Virus record (IMG/VR): IMGVR_UViG_3300029305_001279
Origin: a virus
DNA: 64,000 nt
Direction: 5' to 3' (one strand)
Shown here: one piece after another, positions 6,840-46,691 of the stretch
Layout: every line of letters starts with the position of its first letter
Numbering within the stretch: the stretch's first letter is position 1
Translations under genes and position numbers: made by a program
The notes under the pieces: model-generated
What the model was told of the DNA's origin: nothing
Database searches by the model: none
What the model saw: only the letters and a program-made list of their open reading frames with translations

Positions 6840-8141
6840 ATGAAAAATTCGGGCAATCTCGCAGTACGAATTGATGCTGCTGAACAACAGCTTTTATTTC
6901 ATCACAACCCACAGAATACCAGCGGGTGGATCACACTCGCAAAGAAAGACCCCGATACAAAAAGATTCCGTCAATACCATTACCAACCGGAGGAGCTGGC
7001 AAGCGCTCTGTCTGATTGGATGGGAGAAGACGTTTATTATTCCCAAAATTCATTCTATAAGCCCCAGCGCCGTATTGATAACATCCGGCAGCTGAGGACC
7101 CTATATGTTGATCTCGATGTCTACACTATGGGCATGACCCCTGAATGGGTATTAGGCAAGCTGGAGTTTGAAGTCTTCGGACAGGCACTCCCTGAGCCGA
7201 ATATGGTCATCTTTAGCGGTCGCGGCCTCGTGCTGATCTGGCACATTGAACCGCTTCCCTATCAGGCTATGCCCCTTTGGAGAGCCGTTGAAACCTATTT
7301 CGTGAATCAGCTGAAAGAGGTTGGAGCGGATACCAAAGCCACGGATCCGGCGCGTATCTTCCGTCTGGCAGGCTCCATCAACAGCAAGAACAAAGCTGAG
7401 GTGAAAACGGAGTACCGGCACGACCACCGATATGACATCCACCAGCTCCAGTATGATTACCTTCCTGAGCTGTCACCAAAGAAACTGGCAGTCAAGAAGA
7501 AGGGCCGTCATACCAAGATCGTCCGGATGTTCAACACCTATACGCTCCACCTATCACGTGCAAGAGATCTTGCAAAACTGGTAGAATTGAGACAAGGTGA
7601 TGTGGAAGGATTCCGTGAGACCATTCTGTTCCTTTACCGCTACTGGACATGCTGCTTTACCGATGATCCCGACAGAGCCCTGGAAGACACCCTGAGCCTT
7701 AACAGTGAATTCCTTCGCCCCCTGCCGGAAAAAGAAGTGGCCAGAGCAACCAAGAGTGCCCAGAAAGCCTGGGAAGCCAAGTCTGATGTCAAAGCCAATG
7801 AAATAGCCAAGACTCTGGGTTATCCCGGAGCCGGTTATAACGTAAGCAACAGCAAGCTCATTGAATGGCTGGATATTTCTCCACAAGAACAGGAGCAGTT
7901 ATCCTCCATCATCGGTGCTGTTGAAAAACGGAGAAGGAACCGCATCCAGAAAAAGAAGTGGAGAAGATCCCAAGGTATGCGCCCTATGGAGGAGTACAAC
8001 CAGGAACGGAAACAGCAACTGTTCTCCAAATCCGAACAGTTGAAACAGCTCATTGAGGAGAATCCCTCCTGGACCAATAAACAGCTGGCAGATGCTATGA
8101 ATACCACTGTCCGGTCTGTGCAGAGATGGAAGAAACATTGA
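6840..8141 (+). CDS. replication initiator / primase-polymerase-like protein
   Basis: LYVDLDV (DxD), FSGRGLVLIWH (sGxGxH-like) and FRLAGSINSK follow the order seen in prim-pol/RepB-type replication proteins. C-terminus is basic with an HTH-like tail. Confidence 0.55.
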   Translation: MKNSGNLAVRIDAAEQQLLFHHNPQNTSGWITLAKKDPDTKRFRQYHYQPEELASALSDWMGEDVYYSQNSFYKPQRRIDNIRQLRTLYVDLDVYTMGMTPEWVLGKLEFEVFGQALPEPNMVIFSGRGLVLIWHIEPLPYQAMPLWRAVETYFVNQLKEVGADTKATDPARIFRLAGSINSKNKAEVKTEYRHDHRYDIHQLQYDYLPELSPKKLAVKKKGRHTKIVRMFNTYTLHLSRARDLAKLVELRQGDVEGFRETILFLYRYWTCCFTDDPDRALEDTLSLNSEFLRPLPEKEVARATKSAQKAWEAKSDVKANEIAKTLGYPGAGYNVSNSKLIEWLDISPQEQEQLSSIIGAVEKRRRNRIQKKKWRRSQGMRPMEEYNQERKQQLFSKSEQLKQLIEENPSWTNKQLADAMNTTVRSVQRWKKH

Positions 8142-8962: not shown

Positions 8963-9501
8963 CACCTTTGGAAAGAATGACAGCCGAAGCCTTCCGCGCG
9001 AGTTACCAGGGAAAACGGAACCGCGCACTGGGGCTGCAGTTTGAAGAGATCATCACCGAGGCCTGCGAGCACTACCGCGCCATGGGCCTCGCCTACATAG
9101 AAAAAACCCCCGAACCGATGCGAGTCATCGGAGTTATCAACCGCAAGCTGGGCCACTTCAAGGCTCATTACGAGAAAGCGGCACAGCCGGACTTCAAGGG
9201 CACCATGGCGGGCGGCCGCGCCGTTTGCTTTGAAGCCAAGCACACCGAGACAGACCGCATCAAACAGGATGCCGTCACCGAAGACCAGAAGAATGCCATG
9301 GACCTCCACGAAGCCATGGGAGCCTGGTGCTTCGTTATCGTGTGCCTGAATAACACCTACTACCGTGTCCCCTGGGAGCGGTGGAAGACCATGAAAGAGG
9401 ACTGCGGACACAAGTACATGAATGCCGCTGATCTTCACCCCTATAAGCTGGGCACCTGGCCCGGACACCTTCGATTCCTCGAAACCACCGAGAAAACATA
9501 A
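8959..9501 (+). CDS. recU: RecU-type Holliday junction resolvase
   Basis: GLQFEEIITEACEHYRAMGLAYIEKTPEP...PDFKGTMAGGRAVCFEAKHT...QKNAMDLHEAMGAWCFVIV matches the RecU catalytic core layout (D-F-x-G ... E-x-K). Confidence 0.7.
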   Translation: MTPLERMTAEAFRASYQGKRNRALGLQFEEIITEACEHYRAMGLAYIEKTPEPMRVIGVINRKLGHFKAHYEKAAQPDFKGTMAGGRAVCFEAKHTETDRIKQDAVTEDQKNAMDLHEAMGAWCFVIVCLNNTYYRVPWERWKTMKEDCGHKYMNAADLHPYKLGTWPGHLRFLETTEKT

Positions 9502-9562
9502 CCCACCGCAACCAATAAATCCGTAAACACCGTATATAATCGAGAAAGGAGGCGCTTGCACC

Positions 9563-10093
9563 ATGGAAGAGCAAGACATCTATATCCTGGAGCCGGAACC
9601 CTGGGAAAGGCAGCTGAATGAGTCTCCCCAGGCCTTTGAAGCGTTCGCCGCATACCGTGACATGGGAGCCGCGAGAAGTACAGCGAAAGTGTCCCGCCAA
9701 CTGTGTAAAAGTGTATCGCTGATGAACAGATGGTCTTCTGAGCACGACTGGGTGAAGCGTGTCGCTGCCTGGGATGCTGAAAAGGACCGTGTGGCCCGTC
9801 AGTCGCAGCTGAATGACATCAAAGCCATGCGTGAACGTCATGCTGCCATCGCAAAAAAAATGATGGACACAGCGGACAGCGCCCTCAACAACATCAATCC
9901 GAACGATGTCTCTACGAACGAGATCGCCCGCCTGGTCGAAATCGCAAGTAAGCTGGAGCGCATTTCCCGTGGCGACGTGGGCGATGTCATCGAGGAGCGC
10001 GATGGTGGCGAAGCGGTATCCCCTGTTCAGATCTACGTGCCGGATAACGGCCGGGGCAAGGACAAGGACACATTCAATGACCTGACGGTATAA
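9563..10093 (+). CDS. possible terminase small subunit / HTH protein
   Basis: The N-terminal ESPQAFEAFAAYRDMGAARSTAKVSRQL..SVSLMNRWSSEHDWVKR pattern recurs in phage packaging-module HTH proteins. The function is not proven. Confidence 0.35.
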   Translation: MEEQDIYILEPEPWERQLNESPQAFEAFAAYRDMGAARSTAKVSRQLCKSVSLMNRWSSEHDWVKRVAAWDAEKDRVARQSQLNDIKAMRERHAAIAKKMMDTADSALNNINPNDVSTNEIARLVEIASKLERISRGDVGDVIEERDGGEAVSPVQIYVPDNGRGKDKDTFNDLTV

Positions 10094-10174
10094 CAACTGA
10101 ATATCCTGGCTATTCTGCGATAACTCCAGAGAAGCCACAGCAAAAGAACAGATATAACCAGGAGGAACCACAGC

Positions 10175-12077
10175 ATGAAATTAGGAAGCCTTTTTGATGG
10201 GTCGGGAGGATTCCCGCTCGCAGGAGAGCTTTGCGGCATAGAGCCGCGCTGGGCGGCTGAGATAGAGCCGTACCCAATCGCCGTTACAAGGGGGCGTTTC
10301 CCCTAACTTGGTACACCTTGGAAGTGTGACCGAGATCAACGGCGCAGAAATAGAAGCAGTAGATGTAATCACCTTTGGATCGCCGTGCCAGGATCTTTCC
10401 GTGGCTGGAAAGCGGGCAGGGCTGAAGCACTCAGCCAACGGCGACGATGAAACCACACGCAGCGGCCTATTCATGGAAGCCGTGCGAATCATCAAGGAAA
10501 TGAGGAAAGCCACAAATGGAAAATATCCGAAGTATGCAATATGGGAAAATGTCATGGGCGCCTTCAGCTCAAATGCCGGCGACGACTTCCGTGTCGTCCT
10601 CGAAGAACTCGTCAAAATCTGCGAACCGGAAGCACCCCCGATACCTTCGCCTGGTAAAGCGGGATGGCCATACGCCGACTGCATCATGGGAAACGGATTC
10701 AGCCTTGCTTACCGTGTTTTCGATGCGCAATACTGGCCCGGCACCCCTCAACGCAGAAAACGTATCTACCTTGTCCTCGATCTTACAGGCGAATGTGCCG
10801 AAAAAATACTATTTGAGCGCGAAGGCTTGCGAGGGCATTCTGAGAAGAGCCGAGCGCCGTGGGAAGGAGCTGCCGGAGATCCTCAAGGCCGCTCTGGAAC
10901 AGACGATCCAGAGAGCAGCATAATAGCCATCGATCAACAAGGCGGCAAAGGCAACGCAAATTATGCCGTCGATGTGATGCCTACACTTTGCAGCGATAGC
11001 CATGGCACCCCTCATGCGGTAGCATACGGTGTAACGAGCAAAGGTAATGGAGATAGCTTCATCTCAGAGGAACGGCATACCGCTTTATCTACAGGCGGAG
11101 GCCAACCGGGGCAGGGATATCCATGTGTGATGCAGCCCATAGCCTTCACCCAGAACCAGAGGGACGAACTGAGAGATCTGGGAGACAAAGCCGGAACCAT
11201 ACAAGCGGCGCCAGGAACGCATCAGCAGACCTTCATCATCGATAACATCGGAGGTCAAGCGGAATATGGAGTAGAAAGCACCGTAAACGGCACCCTTCGA
11301 GCTGGTGGGCTGGGCGCTATTTGCTACGATGCCAGAGGAAATGGTGATGGTAAAACCGTCAATACGATCACCGGTGACCACAACAACCGCATAACAGATT
11401 ATAGCTCTGTGGTGGTGTATAACGGTGAGAACATCACAAATCCAACGAACAAAGCAAACCCACAACCCGGTGACCCATGCCACACACTTGGAACCGATAG
11501 CAGGAATCACCTCGTATACTGCCTCCAAGGAAACGTCATTGACAGAGCCAATTCTGCCAGATGCAATGGCGAAGGATGGAAAGAGGATGTGTGCTACACC
11601 CTGAATACCATCGACCGACCGGCTGTATCATACTCAACCGATGTCGGATTCTTTAATACCTGCGAGGATGTGTCCCCGACCATGCTTGCAAGGATGTACA
11701 AAGACCCTCACCTCGTATGCTACGAGGAAGAACCGCAATACATAGTCCGTCGCCTCACCCCTACCGAGTGCGCCAGACTGCAAGGCTTCCCAGACCGATG
11801 GGGAGACATACCACACAAAGAAAACCTCACGGACGAAGAGTACAGCTTCTGGCTGAACGTCCGAAACACCCACGCAGCCATCAACGGCAGAACTACGAAA
11901 GAATACACCAAGGATCAAATCCTCAAATGGTACAATAAACTTCACTCAGACAGTTCCGAATACAAAATGTGGGGCAATGGGATCGCCTTACCAAATGCCT
12001 TGTATGTCATGCAGGGCATAGCGGAGGCAATTAACCATGGTCGAGATCGATACGGAGAAGTGAAACAGAAAGGATAG
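10175..12077 (+). CDS. DNA (cytosine-5) methyltransferase with a very long multi-TRD-like variable region; reading frame broken at 10304
   Basis: The 43-codon N-terminal piece (ATG 10175, AGGAGG upstream) carries motif I LFDGSGGF and motif II AEIEP, then stops at TAA 10304-10306. The next frame continues with SPCQDLS (IV), ENV (VI), QRRKR (VIII), RRLTPTECARLQGFP (IX) and GNGIA (X). Confidence 0.8.
10298..10307 (+). other. candidate +1 programmed frameshift site UUC-CCC-UAA-C
   Basis: Slipping CCC to CCU and then reading AAC gives ...GRFP-NLVHLG..., a contiguous MTase. AGGGGG lies 6 nt upstream and a bulged hairpin (10310-10331) lies downstream. Confidence 0.5.
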
Positions 12078-12086
12078 CAGGACAGC

Positions 12087-13157
12087 ATGATTAAATTGCT
12101 TATTGGCGGTTCCCCATGCACATTCTGGAGCATCGCCCAGAAGAATGGACGGGAAACCGAAGCAGAGGGCATGGGTTGGGAGCTGTTTAAGAACTACCTC
12201 ATTGCCAAGGAAAAATTCCAGCCGGACTTTTTCCTTTACGAAAACAACAAATCGGCAGCACAAGCCATCAAGGATCAGATATCACATGAGCTGGGTGTGG
12301 ATCTCATGCACATCAATAGTGCGCTGGTATCCGCGCAGAACCGTCAGCGATTCTACGCATTCAACTGGACGGTGGATCAGCCGGAGGACCGCGGCATTTC
12401 GCTGAACGAAATTCTGGAAGATACACCCGATGAAATAGGCTGCAAAGTTTCCGGAGTCGGATATAGAAACCGCAGAGAGAGCGACGGAAAGCTGTATAGG
12501 CGTTTTGAAACAGACGGCAATCCCAAATCCAACGCTCTGACAACGGTGGACACCGATAGTATGGTTTGCATACCCGCTCACAGCGTCGCACTCCGCGGAC
12601 GGGACCACAGATCTGCTTACGAAGTGAGCACCGGCGAAAAAGCGAATGCTCTCACGGGAAGTACCCAGCAACGGCGCATTATAAGACCTGCTGGAAAATT
12701 GCAAGACGGTATCACTTACGAGGTACATAATGGCCTTATTGAAATAAAAGGGAAAGAGTACCCCATCAATTTACCGGACGGCAGCTATGTGATGCGGCAT
12801 CTGACCCCGATAGAGTGCGAACGCCTACAGACGCTCCCTGATGGCTACACCGCCTGTGTGAGCAAAACCCAGCGACGGAAGGCTTTGGGCAACGGTTGGA
12901 CGGCGGAGGTGATTATTCACATCCTGAACGGCGCTCTGGCAAACGTTCCTCGGGACGAGGAGATTGTGGTGCTGTCCATGTATGACGGTATCGCTACCGG
13001 TCGGTATTGCTTGGACAAGATGGGCTTCACCAACGTGCGCTATTACGCCTACGAGATCGATAAGTACGCAATGCAAGTCGCATTATCGAATTACCCGGAC
13101 ATCATCCATTGCGGTGATGCGTTCGATCTGAGAAACCCGGATTGGACAATTAACTAA
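12087..13157 (+). CDS. DNMT3-like C5 DNA methyltransferase with circularly permuted motif order (IV-X then I-III)
   Basis: The protein starts MIKLLIGGSPCTFWS (IV), then YENN (VI), QNRQRFY (VIII), RHLTPIECERLQTLP (IX), GNGWTAEV (X). It then ends with VVLSMYDGIATG (I), YAYEID (II) and GDAFDL (III). Confidence 0.75.
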   Translation: MIKLLIGGSPCTFWSIAQKNGRETEAEGMGWELFKNYLIAKEKFQPDFFLYENNKSAAQAIKDQISHELGVDLMHINSALVSAQNRQRFYAFNWTVDQPEDRGISLNEILEDTPDEIGCKVSGVGYRNRRESDGKLYRRFETDGNPKSNALTTVDTDSMVCIPAHSVALRGRDHRSAYEVSTGEKANALTGSTQQRRIIRPAGKLQDGITYEVHNGLIEIKGKEYPINLPDGSYVMRHLTPIECERLQTLPDGYTACVSKTQRRKALGNGWTAEVIIHILNGALANVPRDEEIVVLSMYDGIATGRYCLDKMGFTNVRYYAYEIDKYAMQVALSNYPDIIHCGDAFDLRNPDWTIN

Positions 13158-13247
13158 CAATCAGCAAACAGTCAACCAACCATTTTCGTGACCCCACGAA
13201 AATGATATCAAGATATCAAACCGCGCCCGGCGGGATCCGGGCACCAT

Positions 13248-13321
13248 GGATCAGCGGGGTGTGGCACCCATCTGCACAAAAGCTGCAGAAAGAGTCGGTT
13301 CGATTCCGGTCTGTTCCACCA
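13248..13321 (+). tRNA. non-canonical tRNA-like gene (anticodon loop CAAAAGC, nominal anticodon AAA, A at position 33)
   Basis: Acceptor GGATCAG/CTGTTCC (one T-T mismatch). D stem GGGT/ACCC with a 5-nt loop. Anticodon stem CTGCA/TGCAG, extendable to 6 bp. T arm GTCGG-TTCGATT-CCGGT. Discriminator A, with CCA encoded. Confidence 0.4.
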
Positions 13322-13696
13322 TGCGTGTGGCTCACGCACCCTTGAAACGATACATAGGGGAAAAGGGCTCTCTGTTTCTGTGGTGCAGCACGCAACAGAG
13401 GTGGCGACATAAATTATTAGATTGGCTGGCTCCGGCTTATAAAATCGAACGGATGCGACCGATGCACCGGCGCAGGGCTGAAAAGTTCCGTGATATTCCT
13501 TGGTATGGCTCTGGAATCGCAGAGCGAGGCGAAAAGGCCACCTGCAACGCGAGCGAAAGAGGCCGGCGGGTGGATAGAAGGATAATTGTGGAGTGGTACC
13601 GGCGGAGCTGAGGTTCCAGGCCGGTGTGTAGTTCACAGTGGTTACAGACCATACCGGGGATATGGTGAAAAGGAATACCCAGGAAAAGGAGAATAT
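13322..13696 (+). ncRNA. candidate structured non-coding RNA region (identity unknown)
   Basis: No credible ORF. Many local and long-range complementary segments, including 13322-13339, 13369-13400 and 13508-13525, plus CACCGGC 13465-13471 pairing with GCCGGTG 13620-13626. It lies between the tRNA-like element and tRNA-Thr. Confidence 0.25.
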
Positions 13697-13773
13697 GCCG
13701 CTGTAGCTGCAGCGGTTAGAGCAACTGACTTGTAATCAGTAGGTCGTGGGTTCAAATCCCACCAGCGGCTCCA
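13697..13773 (+). tRNA. tRNA-Thr (anticodon UGU), CCA encoded
   Basis: Clean cloverleaf: acceptor GCCGCTG/CAGCGGC, anticodon arm ACTGA-CTTGTAA-TCAGT, T arm GTGGG-TTCAAAT-CCCAC. Confidence 0.85.
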
Positions 13774-13875
13774 CCGGGCATAGCCCGGCATAATGTCCTC
13801 CTTTTTCTGTTTTCTGACGGCCCGGAAAGACGGGAAGACCTGGGGCGATGGTTATCTATCGCCCTGGGCACCTAC

Positions 13876-13949
13876 GTCGGCGTAGCTCAATGGTAGAGCA
13901 CCTGCCTTCCAAGCAGGCAACGCGGGTTCGATTCCCGTCACCGGCTCCA
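13876..13949 (+). tRNA. tRNA-Gly (anticodon UCC), CCA encoded
   Basis: D arm GCTC-AATGGTA-GAGC, anticodon arm CCTGC-CTTCCAA-GCAGG, T arm GCGGG-TTCGATT-CCCGT. One C-A mismatch in the acceptor stem. Confidence 0.75.
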
Positions 13950-14042
13950 CTTGCTTTCATTCTTTTTCTCCTCTCCTAATGGCGGCTCGGAAAGACGAGA
14001 AGTGCCGTGCAGGCCTGGTAAACCTGCACGGTGCGCCATTAC

Positions 14043-14118
14043 GCTCATGTAACTCAGCTGGTAGAGTAACGGATTTTTAATCCGTGAGTCGCGGGTTCGA
14101 TTCCCTCCATGGGCACCA
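14043..14118 (+). tRNA. tRNA-Lys (anticodon UUU), CCA encoded
   Basis: Acceptor GCTCATG/CATGGGC, anticodon arm ACGGA-TTTTTAA-TCCGT, T loop TTCGATT (one mismatch in the T stem). Confidence 0.75.
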
Positions 14119-14210
14119 AAATACGTAACTATACTTTGCATATTTTCCGGCAAAGATGAAAGTTTGAGCATCAAAACAGAAAAATACGCAAATTGAAAGG
14201 GGGCGATGCC

Positions 14211-15794
14211 ATGATTATTCGTCCGCAGCCGAAGCAGGAGGAATTCCTGAGCAATCCGGCAGACATCATCATTTATGGTGGAGCCGCGGGCGGTGGTTAG
14301 CAAGGTAAGACATACGCCCTCCTCTTGGAAGAGTGCCGCAACAGCGACAACCCACGATTCAACTCGGTAATCTTCCGTAGAAATAACACACAGATCTTCA
14401 CGAACGGCGGTCTCTGGGATTCCGGCATGGCTCTGCTCCCTCTGATCGGCGCACAGCCGAAGAAAACCCCGAAACCGTCCTTCATCTTCCCATCCGGCGC
14501 AAAGGTAACATTCGACCACCTGGAACGTTACAGCGACTGCCTCTCTTACCAGGGCTCGCAGATCGTCTTCATCGGCTTTGACGAGCTGACCCACTTCGAC
14601 GAGGATGTCTTCTGGTATATGCTGTCCCGTAACCGTTCGGACTCCGGTATTCCCGGCTATGTCCGAGCTACCACCAACCCTGACCCTGACTCATGGGTCC
14701 GCACATTCATTGACTGGTGGATTGGCCCTGATGGTCTGGCTATCCCGGAGCGCAGCGGCAAGATCCGCTGGATGATCCGAATCAACGGCGAGGTGGTCTG
14801 GGGCAATTCCCGGATGGAGCTGCTGCAGCGGCAGTTTGATGGTGACATCACCGCCGTGGACAAGAGCCACACATCGACGGATGAACTGTTCGTTCCGGAT
14901 CCAAAGGACAGCAAGATCCAGATCATCGTCAAGCCCGGTGTGGAGGGCACACTGTACATAGCTACTCAGACAAAGCAGTTCTTCCAATGGTCAGGCGGTG
15001 AGTACCGGGAGCTGATGCCCCCGAAGTCCGTGACCTTCATCTGCTCCACATTGCAGGACAATGCCATCCTGATGAAGAATGACCCGAGCTACCTGGCCAA
15101 CCTGAAGGCCCTGCCCCTCGTTGAACAGGAGCGGCTGCTGGGCGGCAACTGGAACATCCGTCCTGCTGCTGGCCTTTACTTCCCTCGTGACAAGGCGAAG
15201 CTCATTGACGAGATACCGGATGACCTGGTGCGTGTTGTCCGCGCATGGGACCTTGCAGGCACAGAGGACAAGAAGAACAACAACCCCGAGGACGGCCCCG
15301 CATACACGGCCGGTGTGCTGATCGGCAAGCGCAAGAGCGGAAAGCTGGTTGTCCTCGACGTTATCAATAAGCGGCTCAATGCCAGCGATGTGCGAAACCT
15401 GGTATTGACCACCGCACGAGCTGACAAGGCAGCATATAAATCCAAATACAGAATCCGCATGAACCAGGATCCCGGCCAGGCCGGTGTGGATCAGAAGGAA
15501 CAGTACATAAAGCTGCTGTCCGGCTTCAGCGTCAACATCGAGCGAGAGTCCGGCAGCAAGGAAGTCCGCGCGGAGCCGCTGTCTGCTCAGTGGATCAACG
15601 GCAATGTGGAAGTCCTGAACAGACCATGGACATCAGAGTACCTGGCCCAGCTGGACGGCTTCCCAGACCGGAAGTTCAAGGATATGGCCGATGCCAGCAA
15701 CACAGGCTTCCTGGAGCTGGAGAAGTTCAACACCGTATCCGTACCGAAGGACAACAGTGCCCTGGCCAAGCAGAGCTACTGGTTCAAGAATTAA
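14211..15794 (+). CDS. terL: terminase large subunit, interrupted by an in-frame TAG at 14298-14300
   Basis: ATG 14211 follows AAGGGGG. The sequence MIIRPQPKQEEFLSNPADIIIYGGAAGGG-TAG-QGKTYALLLEE... stays in one frame throughout, with the Walker A motif straddling the stop. The remaining 489 codons are TerL-like. Confidence 0.8.
14295..14306 (+). other. candidate recoding site GGU-UAG-CAA-GGU (hop or stop read-through)
   Basis: Identical Gly codons flank the stop. Re-pairing of peptidyl-tRNA-Gly from 14295 to 14304 would give YGGAAGGGKTYALL. Confidence 0.35.
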
Positions 15795-45533: not shown

Positions 45534-46691
45534 ATGGCTGAATTCGTCATTCCTGATTTTTTGCAGCACTGCAGTGTGGATGAAATCCACAAGAAGATAG
45601 CAAAGGAAATGCCCGCTGACATCGACCTCAGCGCCGGCAACCACGCCTGGAACATGACCAGACCGACGGCTATCGCCATGGCGGAAATGTGTGAATACTA
45701 CCTGGTGCGGACTATCGAGCTGATTCTGCCGGAGTGGTCCTACGGTACCGTCCTGGTGGGCCATGCCAAGAGCCGAAACCTGACACCCCGATCTGCGACC
45801 GCTGCATCCGGATCCATCACCGTTACCGGAAAAGCGGGAACTCCTGTTCCTACCGGCAGCCTGTTTGCCACAGCGGCAGTCAATGACGAGCCCTCTGTGG
45901 AATACGCAACCACAGAGCCGGCAACAATCCCCGAAAGCGGAAGCCTGACCATTGCAGTCGAGTGTACGCAGACCGGAATCATCGGCAACACCGCCGCCAA
46001 CACCATCATTATGGTAGCCGGTAAGAACACCGGCATCACCGCCGTAACGAACGAGGAAGCCATCACCGGCGGTACCGAAGCGGAAAGCGATGAATCCCTG
46101 AAAGAGCGAATCGATGAAGTCGATAAGAGCCAGGGCGAATCCTATGCCGGTACTCCTGCGGACTATAAGCGCTGGGCCAAGAGTGTGCCCGGTGTCGGTG
46201 AAGCTACCATCATTCCTGCCCAGGACGACTCCGGACTGGTGCAGATCATTTTGACCGACGCAAACGGCGACCCCGCAACCACAAATCTCTGTGAAGAGGT
46301 GTATAACTATATCATGAGACCCGATGCACCTGATAAGCGCCGTGCGCCGATTGGTGCATTCCTGTCCGTGAATCCTCCTGCGACGATGACCATTGCTATC
46401 CGAGCTACCGTGAAGCTGAAGAGCGGTGCGACAATCGAGGCTGTCAAGACCGCCTACGCGGCCGCCCTGTCCACGTATCTTCCCGAGGCATTCGGCGACG
46501 GAGAAATCAAATACTCCCGCGTGTGGGCCGCGCTGGCTTCCACAGCAGGTGTAGACGACTTCACCGACCTGCAGCTCGGCGTCAAGAACGGCGGCAGCGT
46601 CAACTACGGCACGTCCAACATCCAGATTTCGGAGAGCCAGCTCCCGACCATATCCGTGGATAACCTGATTCTGACTGCCGGAACGGTCTGA
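45534..46691 (+). CDS. baseplate J-like protein (XkdT-like)
   Basis: 385 aa, with a ...TGGTEAESDESLKERI... segment typical of baseplate J. Confidence 0.7.
   Translation: MAEFVIPDFLQHCSVDEIHKKIAKEMPADIDLSAGNHAWNMTRPTAIAMAEMCEYYLVRTIELILPEWSYGTVLVGHAKSRNLTPRSATAASGSITVTGKAGTPVPTGSLFATAAVNDEPSVEYATTEPATIPESGSLTIAVECTQTGIIGNTAANTIIMVAGKNTGITAVTNEEAITGGTEAESDESLKERIDEVDKSQGESYAGTPADYKRWAKSVPGVGEATIIPAQDDSGLVQIILTDANGDPATTNLCEEVYNYIMRPDAPDKRRAPIGAFLSVNPPATMTIAIRATVKLKSGATIEAVKTAYAAALSTYLPEAFGDGEIKYSRVWAALASTAGVDDFTDLQLGVKNGGSVNYGTSNIQISESQLPTISVDNLILTAGTV

What the first reader, a model, noticed from the sequence alone, without database searches (positions are those of the whole stretch)
10289..10335. 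C5 DNA methyltransferase split between motif II and motif IV by UUC-CCC-UAA-C; a +1 shift restores a canonical enzyme
- ATG 10175 has a good AGGAGG and encodes MKLGSLFDGSGGFPLAGELCGIEPRWAAEIEPYPIAVTRGRFP, which carries motifs I-II. It then hits TAA.
- The +1 frame continues NLVHLGSVTEINGAEIEAVDVITFGSPCQDLS..., which carries motif IV onward.
- RFP-N-(L/M)-x-HLG is what I expect at this position in phage Dcm enzymes.
- The break uses the same TTCCCCT(A/G)ACT motif as the two cargo-gene junctions 17 kb away. That argues against random decay.
- AGGGGG (10289-10294) sits 6 nt before the UUC codon, reminiscent of the prfB stimulatory SD-like element.
- A bulged hairpin GGTACAC-cttggaa-GTGTGACC follows at 10310-10331.
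- Frameshift-limited methylase expression would be an unusual control point for an anti-restriction enzyme.
Basis: partly seen in the sequence, partly recalled or inferred. Interest (0 to 1): 0.8.

Follow-up and report, generated by a model that had tools for sequence, protein, structure and literature searches.

The report
Frameshift-dependent phage DNA methyltransferase gene
A gut-phage cytosine DNA methyltransferase gene is interrupted after codon 43 by Phe-Pro-stop (UUC CCC UAA), and nine diverged relatives keep this break under purifying selection on both sides, so the enzyme is almost certainly made by a programmed +1 ribosomal frameshift, a known mechanism that I did not find reported for a phage DNA methyltransferase.

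Summary
ORF1 (10175-10306, 43 codons, motifs I-II) ends CGU UUC CCC UAA C. The +1 frame continues from 10305 to 12077 with motifs III-X.

- **It is not an error or decay.** Nine distinct relatives from independent assemblies keep the same break, as ACA AGG GGG CRU UUY CCC UAR C.
- **Both sides are under purifying selection.** pN/pS is 0.06 for ORF1 and 0.21 for the first nine +1 codons, against 0.97 and 3.8 in the other frames there.
- **The stop varies (UAA/UAG) but never disappears.**
- **Independent initiation is unlikely.** TTG 10308 is not conserved. Three relatives have no start codon before motif IV.
- **Intact relatives differ by one base.** About 20 intact relatives read RFPNMKHLG in one frame, are one nucleotide shorter, and lack AGGGGG.
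- **The shift site has experimental precedent.** UUC_CCC_UGA gives 15% +1 shifting in E. coli pheL. CCC_UGA is used in Listeria phage tail genes.
- **The device recurs in this lineage.** It appears at two capsid-cargo junctions and, in relatives, in a ParB/N6 methyltransferase.
- **Stimulators.** The SD-like AGGGGG is supported indirectly. The hairpin is not supported.

Verdict: a real programmed +1 frameshift, a new member of a known kind. Efficiency and purpose are untested.

Separately, the same gene family carries a conserved nested +1 ORF.

The parts
10160..10165 (+). Shine-Dalgarno AGGAGG of ORF1, 9 nt before ATG 10175
   Evidence: Read directly. It is conserved as CAGGAGGAA in most relatives.
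10175..10306 (+). ORF1: 43 codons plus UAA, carrying C5-methyltransferase motif I (FDGSGG) and motif II (AAEIEPY)
   Evidence: pN/pS = 0.06 at pS = 0.40 across nine relatives. It is called as a separate 43-aa gene in L003, L004, L049 and L050.
10289..10294 (+). SD-like AGGGGG (codons AGG GGG), 6 nt upstream of the shift codon; a candidate stimulator
   Evidence: Invariant in 9 of 9 shifted genes and absent from about 20 intact relatives. AGG is 8% of Arg codons and GGG 6% of Gly codons in this phage. The hexamer is depleted in the window, 15 copies against 38 expected. Its role is inferred, not shown.
10298..10307 (+). Shift site UUC CCC UAA C: Phe codon (E site), CCC (P site, re-pairs to CCU), stop (A site), and a following C
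   Evidence: CCC is invariant, the Phe codon is UUC or UUU, the stop is UAA or UAG, and the next base is C in 9 of 9. In 8 of 9 relatives the +1 frame is closed 6 codons upstream, so the shift must occur within ACA AGG GGG CGU UUC CCC. UUC_CCC_UGA is shown experimentally to give 15% +1 shifting in E. coli (PMC3082878).
10305..12077 (+). ORF2 in the +1 frame: 590 codons from AAC 10305, with motifs III-X and a long target-recognition region. Together with ORF1 it gives a 633-aa enzyme.
   Evidence: The first nine +1 codons have pN/pS 0.21, against 0.97 and 3.8 in the other frames. L051 and L052 differ by UUA AAA versus CUA AAG, which is synonymous only in the +1 frame.
10310..10331 (+). Bulged hairpin GGUACAC-cuuggaa-GUGUGACC, probably not functional
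   Evidence: It is present, but z is about -1 against shuffles, and it is replaced by unrelated sequence in L003, L051 and L052. In pheL the 3' context is unimportant (PMC3082878).
27460..27470 (+). Second UUC CCC UGA C site. It ends the 937-aa 2H-phosphoesterase/XkdF protein (24655-27468). The +1 frame continues DSVEKFNPYHD... to 28330.
   Evidence: Single-frame XkdF-cargo fusions exist in other phages (P0121, P0123, P0124, P0126). Relatives keep UUC CCC UAA at this junction.
28656..28666 (+). Third UUC CCC UGA C site. It ends the short ORF 28464-28664. The +1 frame continues DSVEKFNPFHD... to 29718.
   Evidence: It is conserved in L053 (6363) and L054 (6405) with UAA in place of UGA.
10516..10923 (+). 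Nested ORF in the +1 frame relative to ORF2, ending ...VPKKYYLSAKACEGILRRAERRGKELPEILKAALEQTIQRAA**. It is a separate anomaly in the same gene.
   Evidence: see Noticed in passing.

Best explanation
The gene encodes a normal C5 cytosine DNA methyltransferase whose synthesis requires a programmed +1 ribosomal frameshift at codon 43.

**Proposed sequence of events**
1. Ribosomes start at ATG 10175 and translate motifs I-II.
2. They reach UUC CCC UAA C with peptidyl-tRNA(Pro) on CCC in the P site and a stop codon in the A site.
3. Termination there is slow. The reasons are the C-terminal Pro, the penultimate Phe and a weak stop context with C following.
4. A fraction of ribosomes therefore let tRNA(Pro) re-pair one base forward on CCU.
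5. The next codon read is AAC (Asn), or AGC (Ser) in some relatives.
6. Translation continues in the +1 frame through motifs III-X and gives a 633-aa enzyme.
7. The remaining ribosomes release a 43-aa peptide.

**Candidate stimulator and net effect**
- The SD-like AGGGGG 6 nt upstream probably adds stimulation by pairing with 16S rRNA.
- The net effect is to set methyltransferase output to a fraction of the initiation rate. The gene sits in the packaging module, between small terminase and the tRNA/large terminase region.

**What is shown and what is inferred**
- Shown: the gene architecture, its conservation, the selection in both frames, and the lack of an alternative start.
- Inferred from established knowledge: P-site slippage of tRNA(Pro) and the role of Phe-Pro.
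- Inferred only: the role of AGGGGG, the efficiency and the biological purpose.
For: 1. **The fusion restores a canonical enzyme.** A single Pfam PF00145 stretch spans the junction. There is an unbroken alignment to M.HhaI 16-138.
2. **The break is conserved.** Nine distinct genes share it: window, L001, L003, L004, L015, L049, L050, L051 and L052. They come from ENA, NCBI, Logan and JGI assemblies, and all read ACA AGG GGG CRT TTY CCC TAR C.
3. **The break is a one-base insertion.** The FDGSGG-to-GSPCQ distance is 187 nt in shifted genes and 186 nt in about 20 intact relatives, which read RFPNMKHLG in one frame.
4. **Both ORFs are under purifying selection.**
   - ORF1 has pN/pS 0.06 at pS 0.40, and 2.2-5.3 when the same DNA is read in the wrong frames.
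   - The nine codons right after the stop have pN/pS 0.21 in the +1 frame, 0.97 in the 0 frame and 3.8 in the +2 frame.
5. **The stop is kept but varies.** It is UAA or UAG. L051 and L052 differ by changes that are synonymous only in the +1 frame.
6. **The shift window is tightly bounded.** In 8 of 9 genes the +1 frame is closed six codons upstream of the stop.
7. **Synonymous variation is suppressed at the site.** Four of the last six codons are invariant, against four of 34 degenerate codons in the rest of ORF1. AGG and GGG are the rarest Arg and Gly codons in this phage.
8. **There is no conserved start for ORF2.**
   - TTG 10308 is TCG in five relatives.
   - GTG (VTEING) is GTA or GTC in three relatives.
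   - In those three, the first start codon lies after the catalytic PC motif.
9. **Experimental precedent.**
   - UUC_CCC_UGA gives 15% +1 shifting in E. coli pheL.
   - That shifting depends on the penultimate Phe and not on 3' sequence (PMC3082878).
   - CCC_UGA is used in the tsh genes of Listeria phages PSA, A118 and A500 (PMC5009743).
10. **The device recurs in the lineage.**
    - The two cargo junctions in the window are one case. They are conserved in L053 and L054, with the stop switching between UGA and UAA and the +1 codon between Asp and Asn.
    - A ParB/N6 methyltransferase is split at UGU CCC UAR in L004, L049 and L050 but intact in L003, L051 and L052.
Against: - No protein, ribosome-profiling or methylome data exist, so neither the trans-frame product nor its amount has been observed.
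- CCC is the commonest Pro codon here (39%). The 'rare codon' argument used for Listeria phages therefore does not apply.
- The SD-like element lies 6 nt from the shift codon, whereas prfB has 3 nt. The N6-methyltransferase site in relatives has no SD-like element at all, so that element may not be needed.
- The nine shifted genes form one clade. The association of AGGGGG with the shift is therefore a single evolutionary event.
- The host, its tRNA(Pro) set and its release factors are unknown.
- No conserved downstream structure was found.
Confidence: 0.85

Rival explanations
1. Split enzyme. ORF1 (43 aa) and ORF2 are made as separate polypeptides that assemble, as in the naturally heterodimeric C5 methyltransferases. 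ORF2 would start at its own start codon (TTG 10308 or GTG 10326) or by termination-reinitiation.
For: - Naturally two-chain C5 methyltransferases exist. M.EcoHK31I is documented in PMC2836561. M.AquI is from my own knowledge.
- This gene family also shows other two-ORF arrangements (L006, L023).
- Gene callers start ORF2 at GTG (VTEING) in several relatives.
Against: - TTG is present only in the window.
- GTG is GTA or GTC in L003, L051 and L052, whose first possible start lies after the catalytic Pro-Cys.
- No SD lies at a suitable distance from either candidate start.
- The nine codons between the stop and that GTG are under purifying selection in the +1 frame. That is unexpected if they are untranslated.
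- A 43-residue fragment carrying only β1 and the SAM loop is an unlikely stable subunit.
Confidence: 0.06
2. Pseudogene or sequencing or assembly error. A stray extra base in the CCCC run has broken the gene, and the enzyme is not made.
For: - Removing one C from CCCC (10300-10303) gives exactly the canonical RFPNLVHLG.
- Homopolymer indels are a common sequencing error.
Against: - The same break occurs in nine diverged sequences from independent projects.
- L003 has TTTTCCCTAG, a different homopolymer context.
- pS is 0.40 with pN/pS 0.06 and 0.17 on the two sides, which is incompatible with decay.
- A 0-frame stop immediately after CCC is kept in every relative.
Confidence: 0.02
3. Quadruplet decoding. 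A host- or phage-encoded tRNA(Pro) with an expanded or altered anticodon loop (sufA6/sufB2-like) reads CCCU as proline. The recoding would then be tRNA-driven and not spontaneous P-site slippage.
For: - All sites are CCC followed by U.
- Frameshift-suppressor tRNA(Pro) variants act at CCC_N and raise pheL shifting (PMC3082878).
- The phages carry variable tRNA clusters next to the gene.
- An odd tRNA-like element lies at 13248-13321.
Against: - No tRNA(Pro) is found in the window or in seven relatives' loci.
- The odd tRNA-like element has an AAA anticodon, scores below the Rfam threshold, and ARAGORN finds no counterpart in the seven relatives' loci.
- An efficient CCCU reader would also shift at the 19 in-frame CCC_U positions in long ORFs.
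Confidence: 0.04
4. The break is corrected at the nucleic-acid level, by transcriptional slippage or phase variation at the C/T run. In that case some mRNAs or genomes would carry an in-frame gene.
For: - Phase-variable DNA methyltransferases with homopolymer tracts are well known (mentioned in PMC3711429).
- The site contains TTTCCCC.
Against: - The runs are only 3-4 bases long (CCCC, or TTTT plus CCC in L003). That is far below the roughly 7-9 needed for slippage by either polymerase.
- No in-frame allele was found among close relatives.
- The conserved stop directly after CCC is not explained by this model.
Confidence: 0.02

Closest known systems
E. coli pheL leader peptide, UUC_CCC_UGA (Gurvich et al. 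2011, PMC3082878)
   Same: - The E-, P- and A-site triplets are identical: Phe codon, CCC, stop.
- The shift is +1, by peptidyl-tRNA(Pro).
- The penultimate Phe is the key stimulator, and UUC and UUU are equivalent. Relatives here vary UUC/UUU in the same way.
- The 3' sequence is unimportant, which matches the non-conserved hairpin here.
   Different: - In pheL the shifting is incidental and has no known use. Here it is the only route to a functional enzyme and has been kept by selection.
- The stop here is UAA or UAG, not UGA.
- An SD-like element lies upstream here.
- The host is a gut Firmicute-type bacterium, not E. coli.
Listeria phage PSA, A118 and A500 tail-shaft gene tsh, +1 at (AAA) CCC_UGA (Zimmer et al. 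2003, as summarised in PMC5009743)
   Same: - A phage gene uses CCC-stop +1 frameshifting.
- The window's two cargo junctions resemble it closely, since a structural protein gains a C-terminal extension in a fixed ratio.
   Different: - tsh frameshifting adds an optional extension to an already complete protein, giving two useful products.
- In the methyltransferase the 0-frame product is a 43-aa stub and only the shifted product can work.
- The gene class (DNA modification enzyme), the penultimate residue and the stop codons all differ.
Bacterial prfB (RF2), AGGGGG UAU CUU UGA C
   Same: - The shift site lies early in the gene.
- The shift is obligatory for the functional product.
- The same SD-like hexamer AGGGGG lies upstream.
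- A stop codon followed by C sits in the A site.
   Different: - The shift codon is CCC, not CUU.
- The SD spacing is 6 nt, not 3 nt.
- The stop is UAA or UAG (UGA at the cargo sites), so there is no RF2-specific autoregulatory loop.
Yeast ABP140/TRM140, CUU_AGG_C +1 frameshift (PMC5009743)
   Same: A methyltransferase domain is reached only by +1 frameshifting from a short upstream ORF.
   Different: It is eukaryotic, it is a tRNA methyltransferase, the shift site is Ty1-type at a rare sense codon, and the upstream ORF has its own actin-binding function.
Phase-variable type III mod methyltransferases (phasevarions)
   Same: A DNA methyltransferase gene is interrupted by a frame change near its 5' end.
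   Different: Those switch by DNA slippage in long repeats, and in-frame and out-of-frame alleles coexist. Here there is no repeat tract and no in-frame allele.

Membership tests
Programmed +1 ribosomal frameshift at a Pro-codon/stop site (pheL or PSA tsh type) | Two ORFs with the downstream one in the +1 frame and a very short overlap | tested here: met
   ORF1 is 10175-10306 and ORF2 runs from 10305. In 8 of 9 relatives the +1 frame is open for only 6 codons before the stop.
Programmed +1 ribosomal frameshift at a Pro-codon/stop site (pheL or PSA tsh type) | The P-site codon allows tRNA re-pairing one base forward (CCC_U), with a stop or slow codon in the A site | tested here: met
   CCC UAA in the window, and CCC UAR in all nine genes. 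CCC is invariant while the other four Pro codons of ORF1 vary.
Programmed +1 ribosomal frameshift at a Pro-codon/stop site (pheL or PSA tsh type) | The frameshift arrangement is conserved among diverged homologues, with purifying selection on both ORFs | tested here: met
   Nine genes at pS 0.40. pN/pS is 0.06 upstream, 0.17 over the first 60 downstream codons, and 0.21 over the first nine codons after the site.
Programmed +1 ribosomal frameshift at a Pro-codon/stop site (pheL or PSA tsh type) | The trans-frame protein is demonstrated and its efficiency measured | not testable with these tools
   This needs mass spectrometry, western blots, a reporter or ribosome profiling.
prfB-type frameshift | An SD-like element 3 nt upstream of the shift codon | tested here: inconclusive
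   AGGGGG is present and invariant but lies 6 nt from CCC. Several cargo sites in relatives do have GAGGAG, AAGGAG or GAGGUG exactly 3 nt before CCC.
prfB-type frameshift | A CUU_UGA shift site with autoregulation by RF2 | tested here: not met
   The shift codon is CCC. The stop is UAA or UAG at this gene, and the product is not a release factor.
C5 cytosine DNA methyltransferase (Pfam PF00145) | Conserved motifs I (FxGxG), IV (PCQ), VI (ENV), VIII (QxRxR), IX and X in order | tested here: met
   - The fused 633-aa protein matches PF00145 with E = 7e-35.
- The motifs seen are FDGSGG, GSPCQ, ENV, QRRKR, RRLTPTECARLQGFPD and GNGIALP.
- It aligns to M.HhaI.
Phase-variable methyltransferase | A long homopolymer or short tandem repeat at the frame break, with on and off alleles in populations | tested here: not met
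   The runs are 3-4 bases long. All nine close relatives carry the same out-of-frame state.
Naturally split (two-chain) C5 methyltransferase | An independent start codon and ribosome-binding site for the second chain | tested here: not met
   No conserved start codon lies before motif IV in L003, L051 and L052, and there is no suitably placed SD.

The most novel reading that the evidence does not exclude
This lineage of about 65-70 kb gut phages is linked to Oscillospiraceae; one relative's contig is binned in a Faecousia MAG. The reading is that it uses (Phe/Cys)-Pro-stop +1 frameshifting as a general, reusable expression device.

- The device operates at two or more different DNA methyltransferases (C5 and ParB/N6) and at two or more capsid-cargo fusion junctions.
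- It works with any of the three stop codons.
- At the methyltransferases it acts as a translational gate. The gate would tie DNA modification to the state of the host's termination and tRNA(Pro) machinery late in infection, and would not simply lower expression.
Probability: 0.3. Interest if true: 0.75.

Novelty: new member of a known kind. Interest (0 to 1): 0.6.

Why it matters
**Annotation**
- Gene callers currently split this enzyme into a 43-aa 'hypothetical protein' and an N-terminally truncated methylase.
- Many database entries start at VTEING or even after the catalytic cysteine.
- Methylation capacity, anti-restriction potential and host-range inference for these gut phages are therefore mis-annotated.

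**Recoding biology**
- The site provides a natural, selected use of the exact UUC_CCC_stop signal that was characterised in E. coli pheL as merely incidental.
- It adds DNA methyltransferases to the short list of bacterial and phage genes whose only functional product needs a +1 shift.
- Several sites exist in one genome, with natural variants: UAA/UAG/UGA, UUC/UUU, Phe or Cys, and with or without an SD-like element at 3, 6 or 9 nt. This gives a ready-made comparative series for testing what sets +1 efficiency in Firmicute-type hosts.

Tried and rejected
- **Close DNA relatives in annotated phages:** none found (megablast).
- **IMG/VR viral contigs:**
  - They hold only intact, more distant relatives of the gene.
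  - They hold no copy of the cargo-junction motif.
- **Downstream hairpin as stimulator:** folding z-scores are about -1, and the hairpin is not conserved. Rejected.
- **Rfam scan of 9000-15500:** only tRNAs were found, and no known frameshift element.
- **Phage-encoded tRNA(Pro) or suppressor tRNA:** none in the window or in seven relatives' loci.
- **Wider spread of the break:**
  - P0477 (43 aa, ending IP) turned out to be cut by contig ends.
  - P0485/L061 has an in-frame TGA at the Asn position, not a frameshift.
  - L016 has an unrelated frame break upstream of this site and was set aside.
- **Mechanical scan for other CCC-stop +1 junctions in the window:**
  - Only the three TTCCCC sites look real.
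  - The other two hits, 30055 and 16622, are alternate-frame coincidences.
- **Avoidance of CCC-stop at ordinary gene ends:** too few genes to test. One of 35 long ORFs ends in CCC, and that one is itself a shift site.
- **Literature search for a frameshift-dependent phage DNA methyltransferase:** nothing specific was found.
Full report
**1. What is in the sequence**

- AGGAGG (10160-10165) precedes ATG 10175.
- ORF1 reads MKLGSLFDGSGGFPLAGELCGIEPRWAAEIEPYPIAVTRGRFP and stops at TAA 10304-10306.
- The local sequence is ACA AGG GGG CGT TTC CCC TAA C.
- One base forward, from 10305, the frame reads NLVHLGSVTEINGAEIEAVDVITFGSPCQ and stays open to 12077.

The fusion behaves like a normal enzyme.
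- Joining the two gives a 633-aa protein that matches Pfam PF00145 at E = 7e-35. One aligned stretch (residues 1-146) runs straight across the junction.
- The N-terminal 206 residues align without a break to M.HhaI 16-138.
- The 11-mer TTCCCCTRACT occurs three times in the window, against 0.04 expected.

Two details need correction.
- AGGGGG is 3 nt from UUC and 6 nt from CCC.
- The break lies between motifs II and III.

**2. Is it real, or an error or decay?**

*The protein search pointed to a conserved split.*
- A search with the fused protein found an identical C-terminal product called from GTG (P0001).
- About 17 close relatives (63-77% identity) were all N-terminally truncated. They start at 'MTEING' or at 'MAGKRAG', which lies beyond the catalytic Cys.
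- Relatives at 57-60% identity were intact, reading RFPKMKHLGD or RFPNMKHLGD.

*The DNA of relatives confirmed it.*
- I fetched the DNA of these relatives.
- Nine distinct genes from independent ENA, NCBI, Logan and JGI assemblies carry the same interruption: ACA AGG GGG CRT TTY CCC TAR C.
- About 20 intact relatives have exactly one nucleotide less between FDGSGG and GSPCQ, 186 against 187 nt.

*The shifted genes fall into two downstream variants.*
- Variant (a) is CCC TAA CTY GGY ACA CC..., which gives N(L/S)(V/A)H(L/H)GSVT in the +1 frame.
- Variant (b) is CCC TAG CYT AAA RCA TCT AGG GAG CGT, which gives SLKHLGSVT.
- L003 has TTT CCC TAG, so the homopolymer context differs.
- L051 and L052 differ by TTA AAA versus CTA AAG. 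This is synonymous in the +1 frame and non-synonymous in the 0 frame.

*Selection is clear on both sides of the break.*

| Region | Frame | pN/pS |
|---|---|---|
| ORF1 (pS = 0.40) | 0 | 0.06 |
| ORF1 DNA read out of frame | +1 / +2 | 2.2 / 5.3 |
| First nine codons after the stop | +1 | 0.21 |
| First nine codons after the stop | 0 | 0.97 |
| First nine codons after the stop | +2 | 3.8 |
| First 60 codons after the stop | +1 | 0.17 |

A sequencing error or a pseudogene is therefore excluded.

**3. Where and how the frame changes**

- In eight of nine genes the +1 frame is closed by TGA (within GTGACA) six codons before the 0-frame stop. The change must therefore happen within ACA AGG GGG CGT TTC CCC.
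- Independent initiation of ORF2 is not credible.
  - TTG 10308 is TCG in five relatives.
  - The GTG used by gene callers is GTA or GTC in L003, L051 and L052, whose next start codon lies after motif IV.
  - The codons before that GTG are under selection in the +1 frame.
- The runs of 3-4 identical bases are too short for polymerase slippage, and no in-frame allele exists among close relatives.

What remains is ribosomal +1 frameshifting with peptidyl-tRNA(Pro) moving from CCC to CCU while a stop codon waits in the A site. This step rests on established knowledge.
- That shifting depends on the penultimate Phe. UUC and UUU are equivalent, while Leu or Arg abolish it.
- It does not depend on 3' sequence (PMC3082878).
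- CCC_UGA is a utilised +1 site in the tail genes of Listeria phages PSA, A118 and A500 (PMC5009743).
- The natural variation seen here (UUC/UUU, UAA/UAG, always followed by C, variable 3' sequence) fits that behaviour.

**4. Candidate stimulators**

*The SD-like AGGGGG has indirect support.*
- Synonymous variation is suppressed just before the stop. ACA, AGG, GGG and CCC are invariant, which is four of six codons. Only four of the 34 other degenerate codons of ORF1 are invariant, so the excess has roughly p = 0.003.
- AGG and GGG are the rarest Arg and Gly codons in this phage, at 8% and 6%.
- AGGGGG is depleted in the window, with 15 copies against 38 expected. Three plus-strand copies sit 5-8 nt before likely start codons, which is consistent with use as a ribosome-binding site.
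- None of the intact relatives has it. They encode TR(S/A/N)R with other codons.
- Cargo-junction sites carry GAGGAG, AAGGAG, GAGGUG or GAGGCR just upstream, often exactly 3 nt before CCC as in prfB.

*There are caveats.*
- The spacing at the methyltransferase is 6 nt.
- The nine shifted genes are one clade.
- The N6-methyltransferase site in relatives has no such element.

*The hairpin has no support.*
- The hairpin at 10310-10331 has an unremarkable folding energy and is replaced by unrelated sequence in variant (b). I do not consider it part of the signal.

**5. The same device elsewhere in the lineage**

*Cargo junctions in the window.*
- At 27466 the 937-aa protein ends ...FDHIEEFDFP-UGA. 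This protein has a 2H-phosphoesterase domain plus an XkdF protease-like domain.
- At 28662 a short ORF ends ...FDYITEAFP-UGA.
- Both continue in the +1 frame with DSVEKFNP(Y/F)HD..GRF.

*Cargo junctions in other phages.*
- Homologues elsewhere have the XkdF domain and this cargo fused in one frame (P0121, P0123, P0124, P0126, P0142, P0153).
- All eight sampled close relatives whose XkdF proteins end at this junction end in Phe-Pro.
- In L053 and L054 both junctions are UUC CCC UAA. The first +1 codon is then Asn instead of Asp.

*A second methyltransferase in relatives.*
- In L004, L049 and L050, a ParB-like/N6_N4 methyltransferase is split at UGU CCC UAG C or UGU CCC UAA A.
- Its +1 frame continues (S/K)VPVEYQ..., while L003, L051 and L052 read ...LGCKQVPVEYQ in one frame.
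- CCC-stop +1 recoding is therefore a recurrent feature of these phages. This strengthens the case for the finding.

**6. What it is for (inference)**

- The site is early, at codon 43 of 633, so the non-shifted product is a cheap stub. That resembles prfB and differs from the two-product structural cases.
- The stop is not RF-specific, so an RF2-type feedback loop is not expected.
- The gene lies between the small terminase (9563-10093, PHROG 6299) and the tRNA cluster and large terminase.
- The most economical reading is attenuation: only a few percent of initiating ribosomes complete an enzyme that is needed in catalytic amounts from a strongly expressed late/packaging operon.
- A sensing role, in which shifting rises when termination or tRNA(Pro) function is strained late in infection, is possible but untested.

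**7. Comparison with known systems and novelty**

- The mechanism belongs to the known class of P-site +1 frameshifts at Pro-stop sites. The closest signal is pheL and the closest phage usage is PSA tsh.
- It resembles prfB in being obligatory, early in the gene, and preceded by AGGGGG. It fails prfB's defining CUU_UGA/RF2 logic.
- I found no report of a phage DNA methyltransferase that depends on ribosomal frameshifting.
- The yeast tRNA methyltransferase TRM140 is a distant functional analogue.
- I rate it a new member of a known kind, of solid interest to recoding and phage-annotation specialists.

**8. A separate anomaly in the same gene (partly followed up)**

*The anomaly.*
- After motif VIII (Q at 10749) the annotated frame reads an unconstrained linker.
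- The +1 frame (ORF 10516-10923) reads ...VPKKYYLSAKACEGILRRAERRGKELPEILKAALEQTIQRAA**.

*Selection and openness.*
- Over codons 12-54, pN/pS is 0.23-0.29 in the +1 frame and 0.85-1.4 in the annotated frame. This holds in both shifted and intact relatives.
- The +1 frame is free of stops from about codon -81 to about +57 in all 18 genes checked, including Streptococcus phage Javan191. Elsewhere, +1-frame stops come every 20-30 codons.
- A +1-frame ATG preceded by GAGG(A) or AAGGAG is conserved.

*How the peptide is arranged in other genes.*

| Arrangement | Examples | Source |
|---|---|---|
| In frame with the methyltransferase | P0323 | |
| At the head of a second ORF carrying the recognition domain and motifs IX-X | L006, L023, P0252, P0255 | |
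| Other frame arrangements | L034, P0330 | |

*Precedent and status.*
- M.EcoHK31I, whose β chain is encoded in another frame inside the α gene, is a precedent for nested coding in a C5 methyltransferase (PMC2836561).
- I could not resolve whether the nested ORF is a separate subunit or a frameshift isoform.

Noticed in passing
window 10516-10923 (+), inside the methyltransferase gene; also L001-L057 at the same place: A conserved nested ORF lies in the +1 frame relative to the methyltransferase.
- Its last 45 or so residues (VPxKYYLSAKACEGILRRAERRGKELPxxLKxALEQ) are under purifying selection. pN/pS is 0.23-0.29 there, while the annotated frame has 0.85-1.4.
- The +1 frame is stop-free for about 138 codons in all 18 genes checked, from Clostridia phages to Streptococcus phage Javan191.
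- It has a conserved ATG with GAGG or AAGGAG upstream.
- In some genes (L006, L023) this frame carries the whole C-terminal half of the enzyme. In P0323 the peptide is in frame.
- It resembles the nested β chain of M.EcoHK31I.
   Followed up: partly
L004 about 1785-1790; L049 about 7512-7517; L050 about 7433-7438: In three relatives a second methyltransferase (ParB-like N-terminus plus PF01555 N6_N4_Mtase) is split at UGU CCC UAG C or UGU CCC UAA A. The +1 frame continues (S/K)VPVEYQ... Orthologues in L003, L051 and L052 are in one frame. No SD-like element lies upstream. The window itself lacks this gene.
   Followed up: partly
window 27460-27470 and 28656-28666; L053 5141 and 6363; L054 5171 and 6405; L055 about 5237: Capsid-cargo junctions end in UUC CCC UGA (window) or UUC/UUU CCC UAA (relatives).
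- They close an XkdF-domain protein and a short ORF, and the +1 frame continues with (D/N)SVEKFNP(Y/F)HD..GRF cargo proteins.
- Single-frame fusions exist in other phages.
- In L055 only 32 +1 codons follow, which looks like a decayed cargo.
- Most sites have GAGGAG, AAGGAG or GAGGUG 3 nt before CCC.
   Followed up: partly
window 24655-31297: The motif KFNPYHDxxGRF recurs in several proteins.
- It occurs at the N-terminus and internally in the 937-aa protein.
- It occurs at the start of both cargo ORFs.
- It occurs after a helical N-domain in ORF 30047-31297.
- It may be a shared packaging or cleavage module.
- The 937-aa protein combines a 2H phosphoesterase (LigT/AKAP7, with a weak Acb1 match) with an XkdF domain.
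   Followed up: no
window 12087-13157 (+): The second C5 methyltransferase has an apparently circularly permuted motif order. It starts at motif IV (LIGGSPC), runs through X, and ends with motifs I-III (LSMYDGIATG...YEID...GDAF). Homologues of the same length are annotated as single C5 methyltransferases in other phages, for example Roseobacter phage CRP-9.
   Followed up: partly
window 13248-13321 (+): A tRNA-like element that ARAGORN calls 'tRNA-Phe (AAA)'.
- It scores 24 bits in Rfam tRNA, below the threshold of 29.
- By my reading of the sequence, it has A at position 33 (normally U) and encodes CCA.
- It lies next to normal tRNA-Thr, tRNA-Gly and tRNA-Lys genes.
- ARAGORN calls nothing similar in relatives, whose tRNA sets vary. 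Only tRNA-Gly (UCC) is present in all of them.
   Followed up: partly
proteins P0406, P0410, P0418, P0425, P0440, P0443 (other contigs, 46-72 kb): Many related methyltransferase N-terminal fragments of 70-71 aa end exactly at ...ITFGSP or ...ITFGSPC, which is motif IV. This suggests another recurrent interruption at the catalytic motif, such as an intron, an intein, a homing endonuclease or another recoding site.
   Followed up: no
L061 454-647: A more distant relative has an in-frame TGA exactly at the Asn position (CGG TTT CCG TGA ATG AAG CAA CTG GGC, that is RFP-stop-MKQLG). This could be a nonsense mutation, readthrough or a TGA-recoding organism. The contig is only 647 nt long.
   Followed up: no
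window, whole: AGGGGG is under-represented, with 15 copies on both strands against 38 ± 5 expected. Three plus-strand copies lie 5-8 nt upstream of ATGs at 45534, 55840 and 62444, which is consistent with use as a ribosome-binding site.
   Followed up: partly
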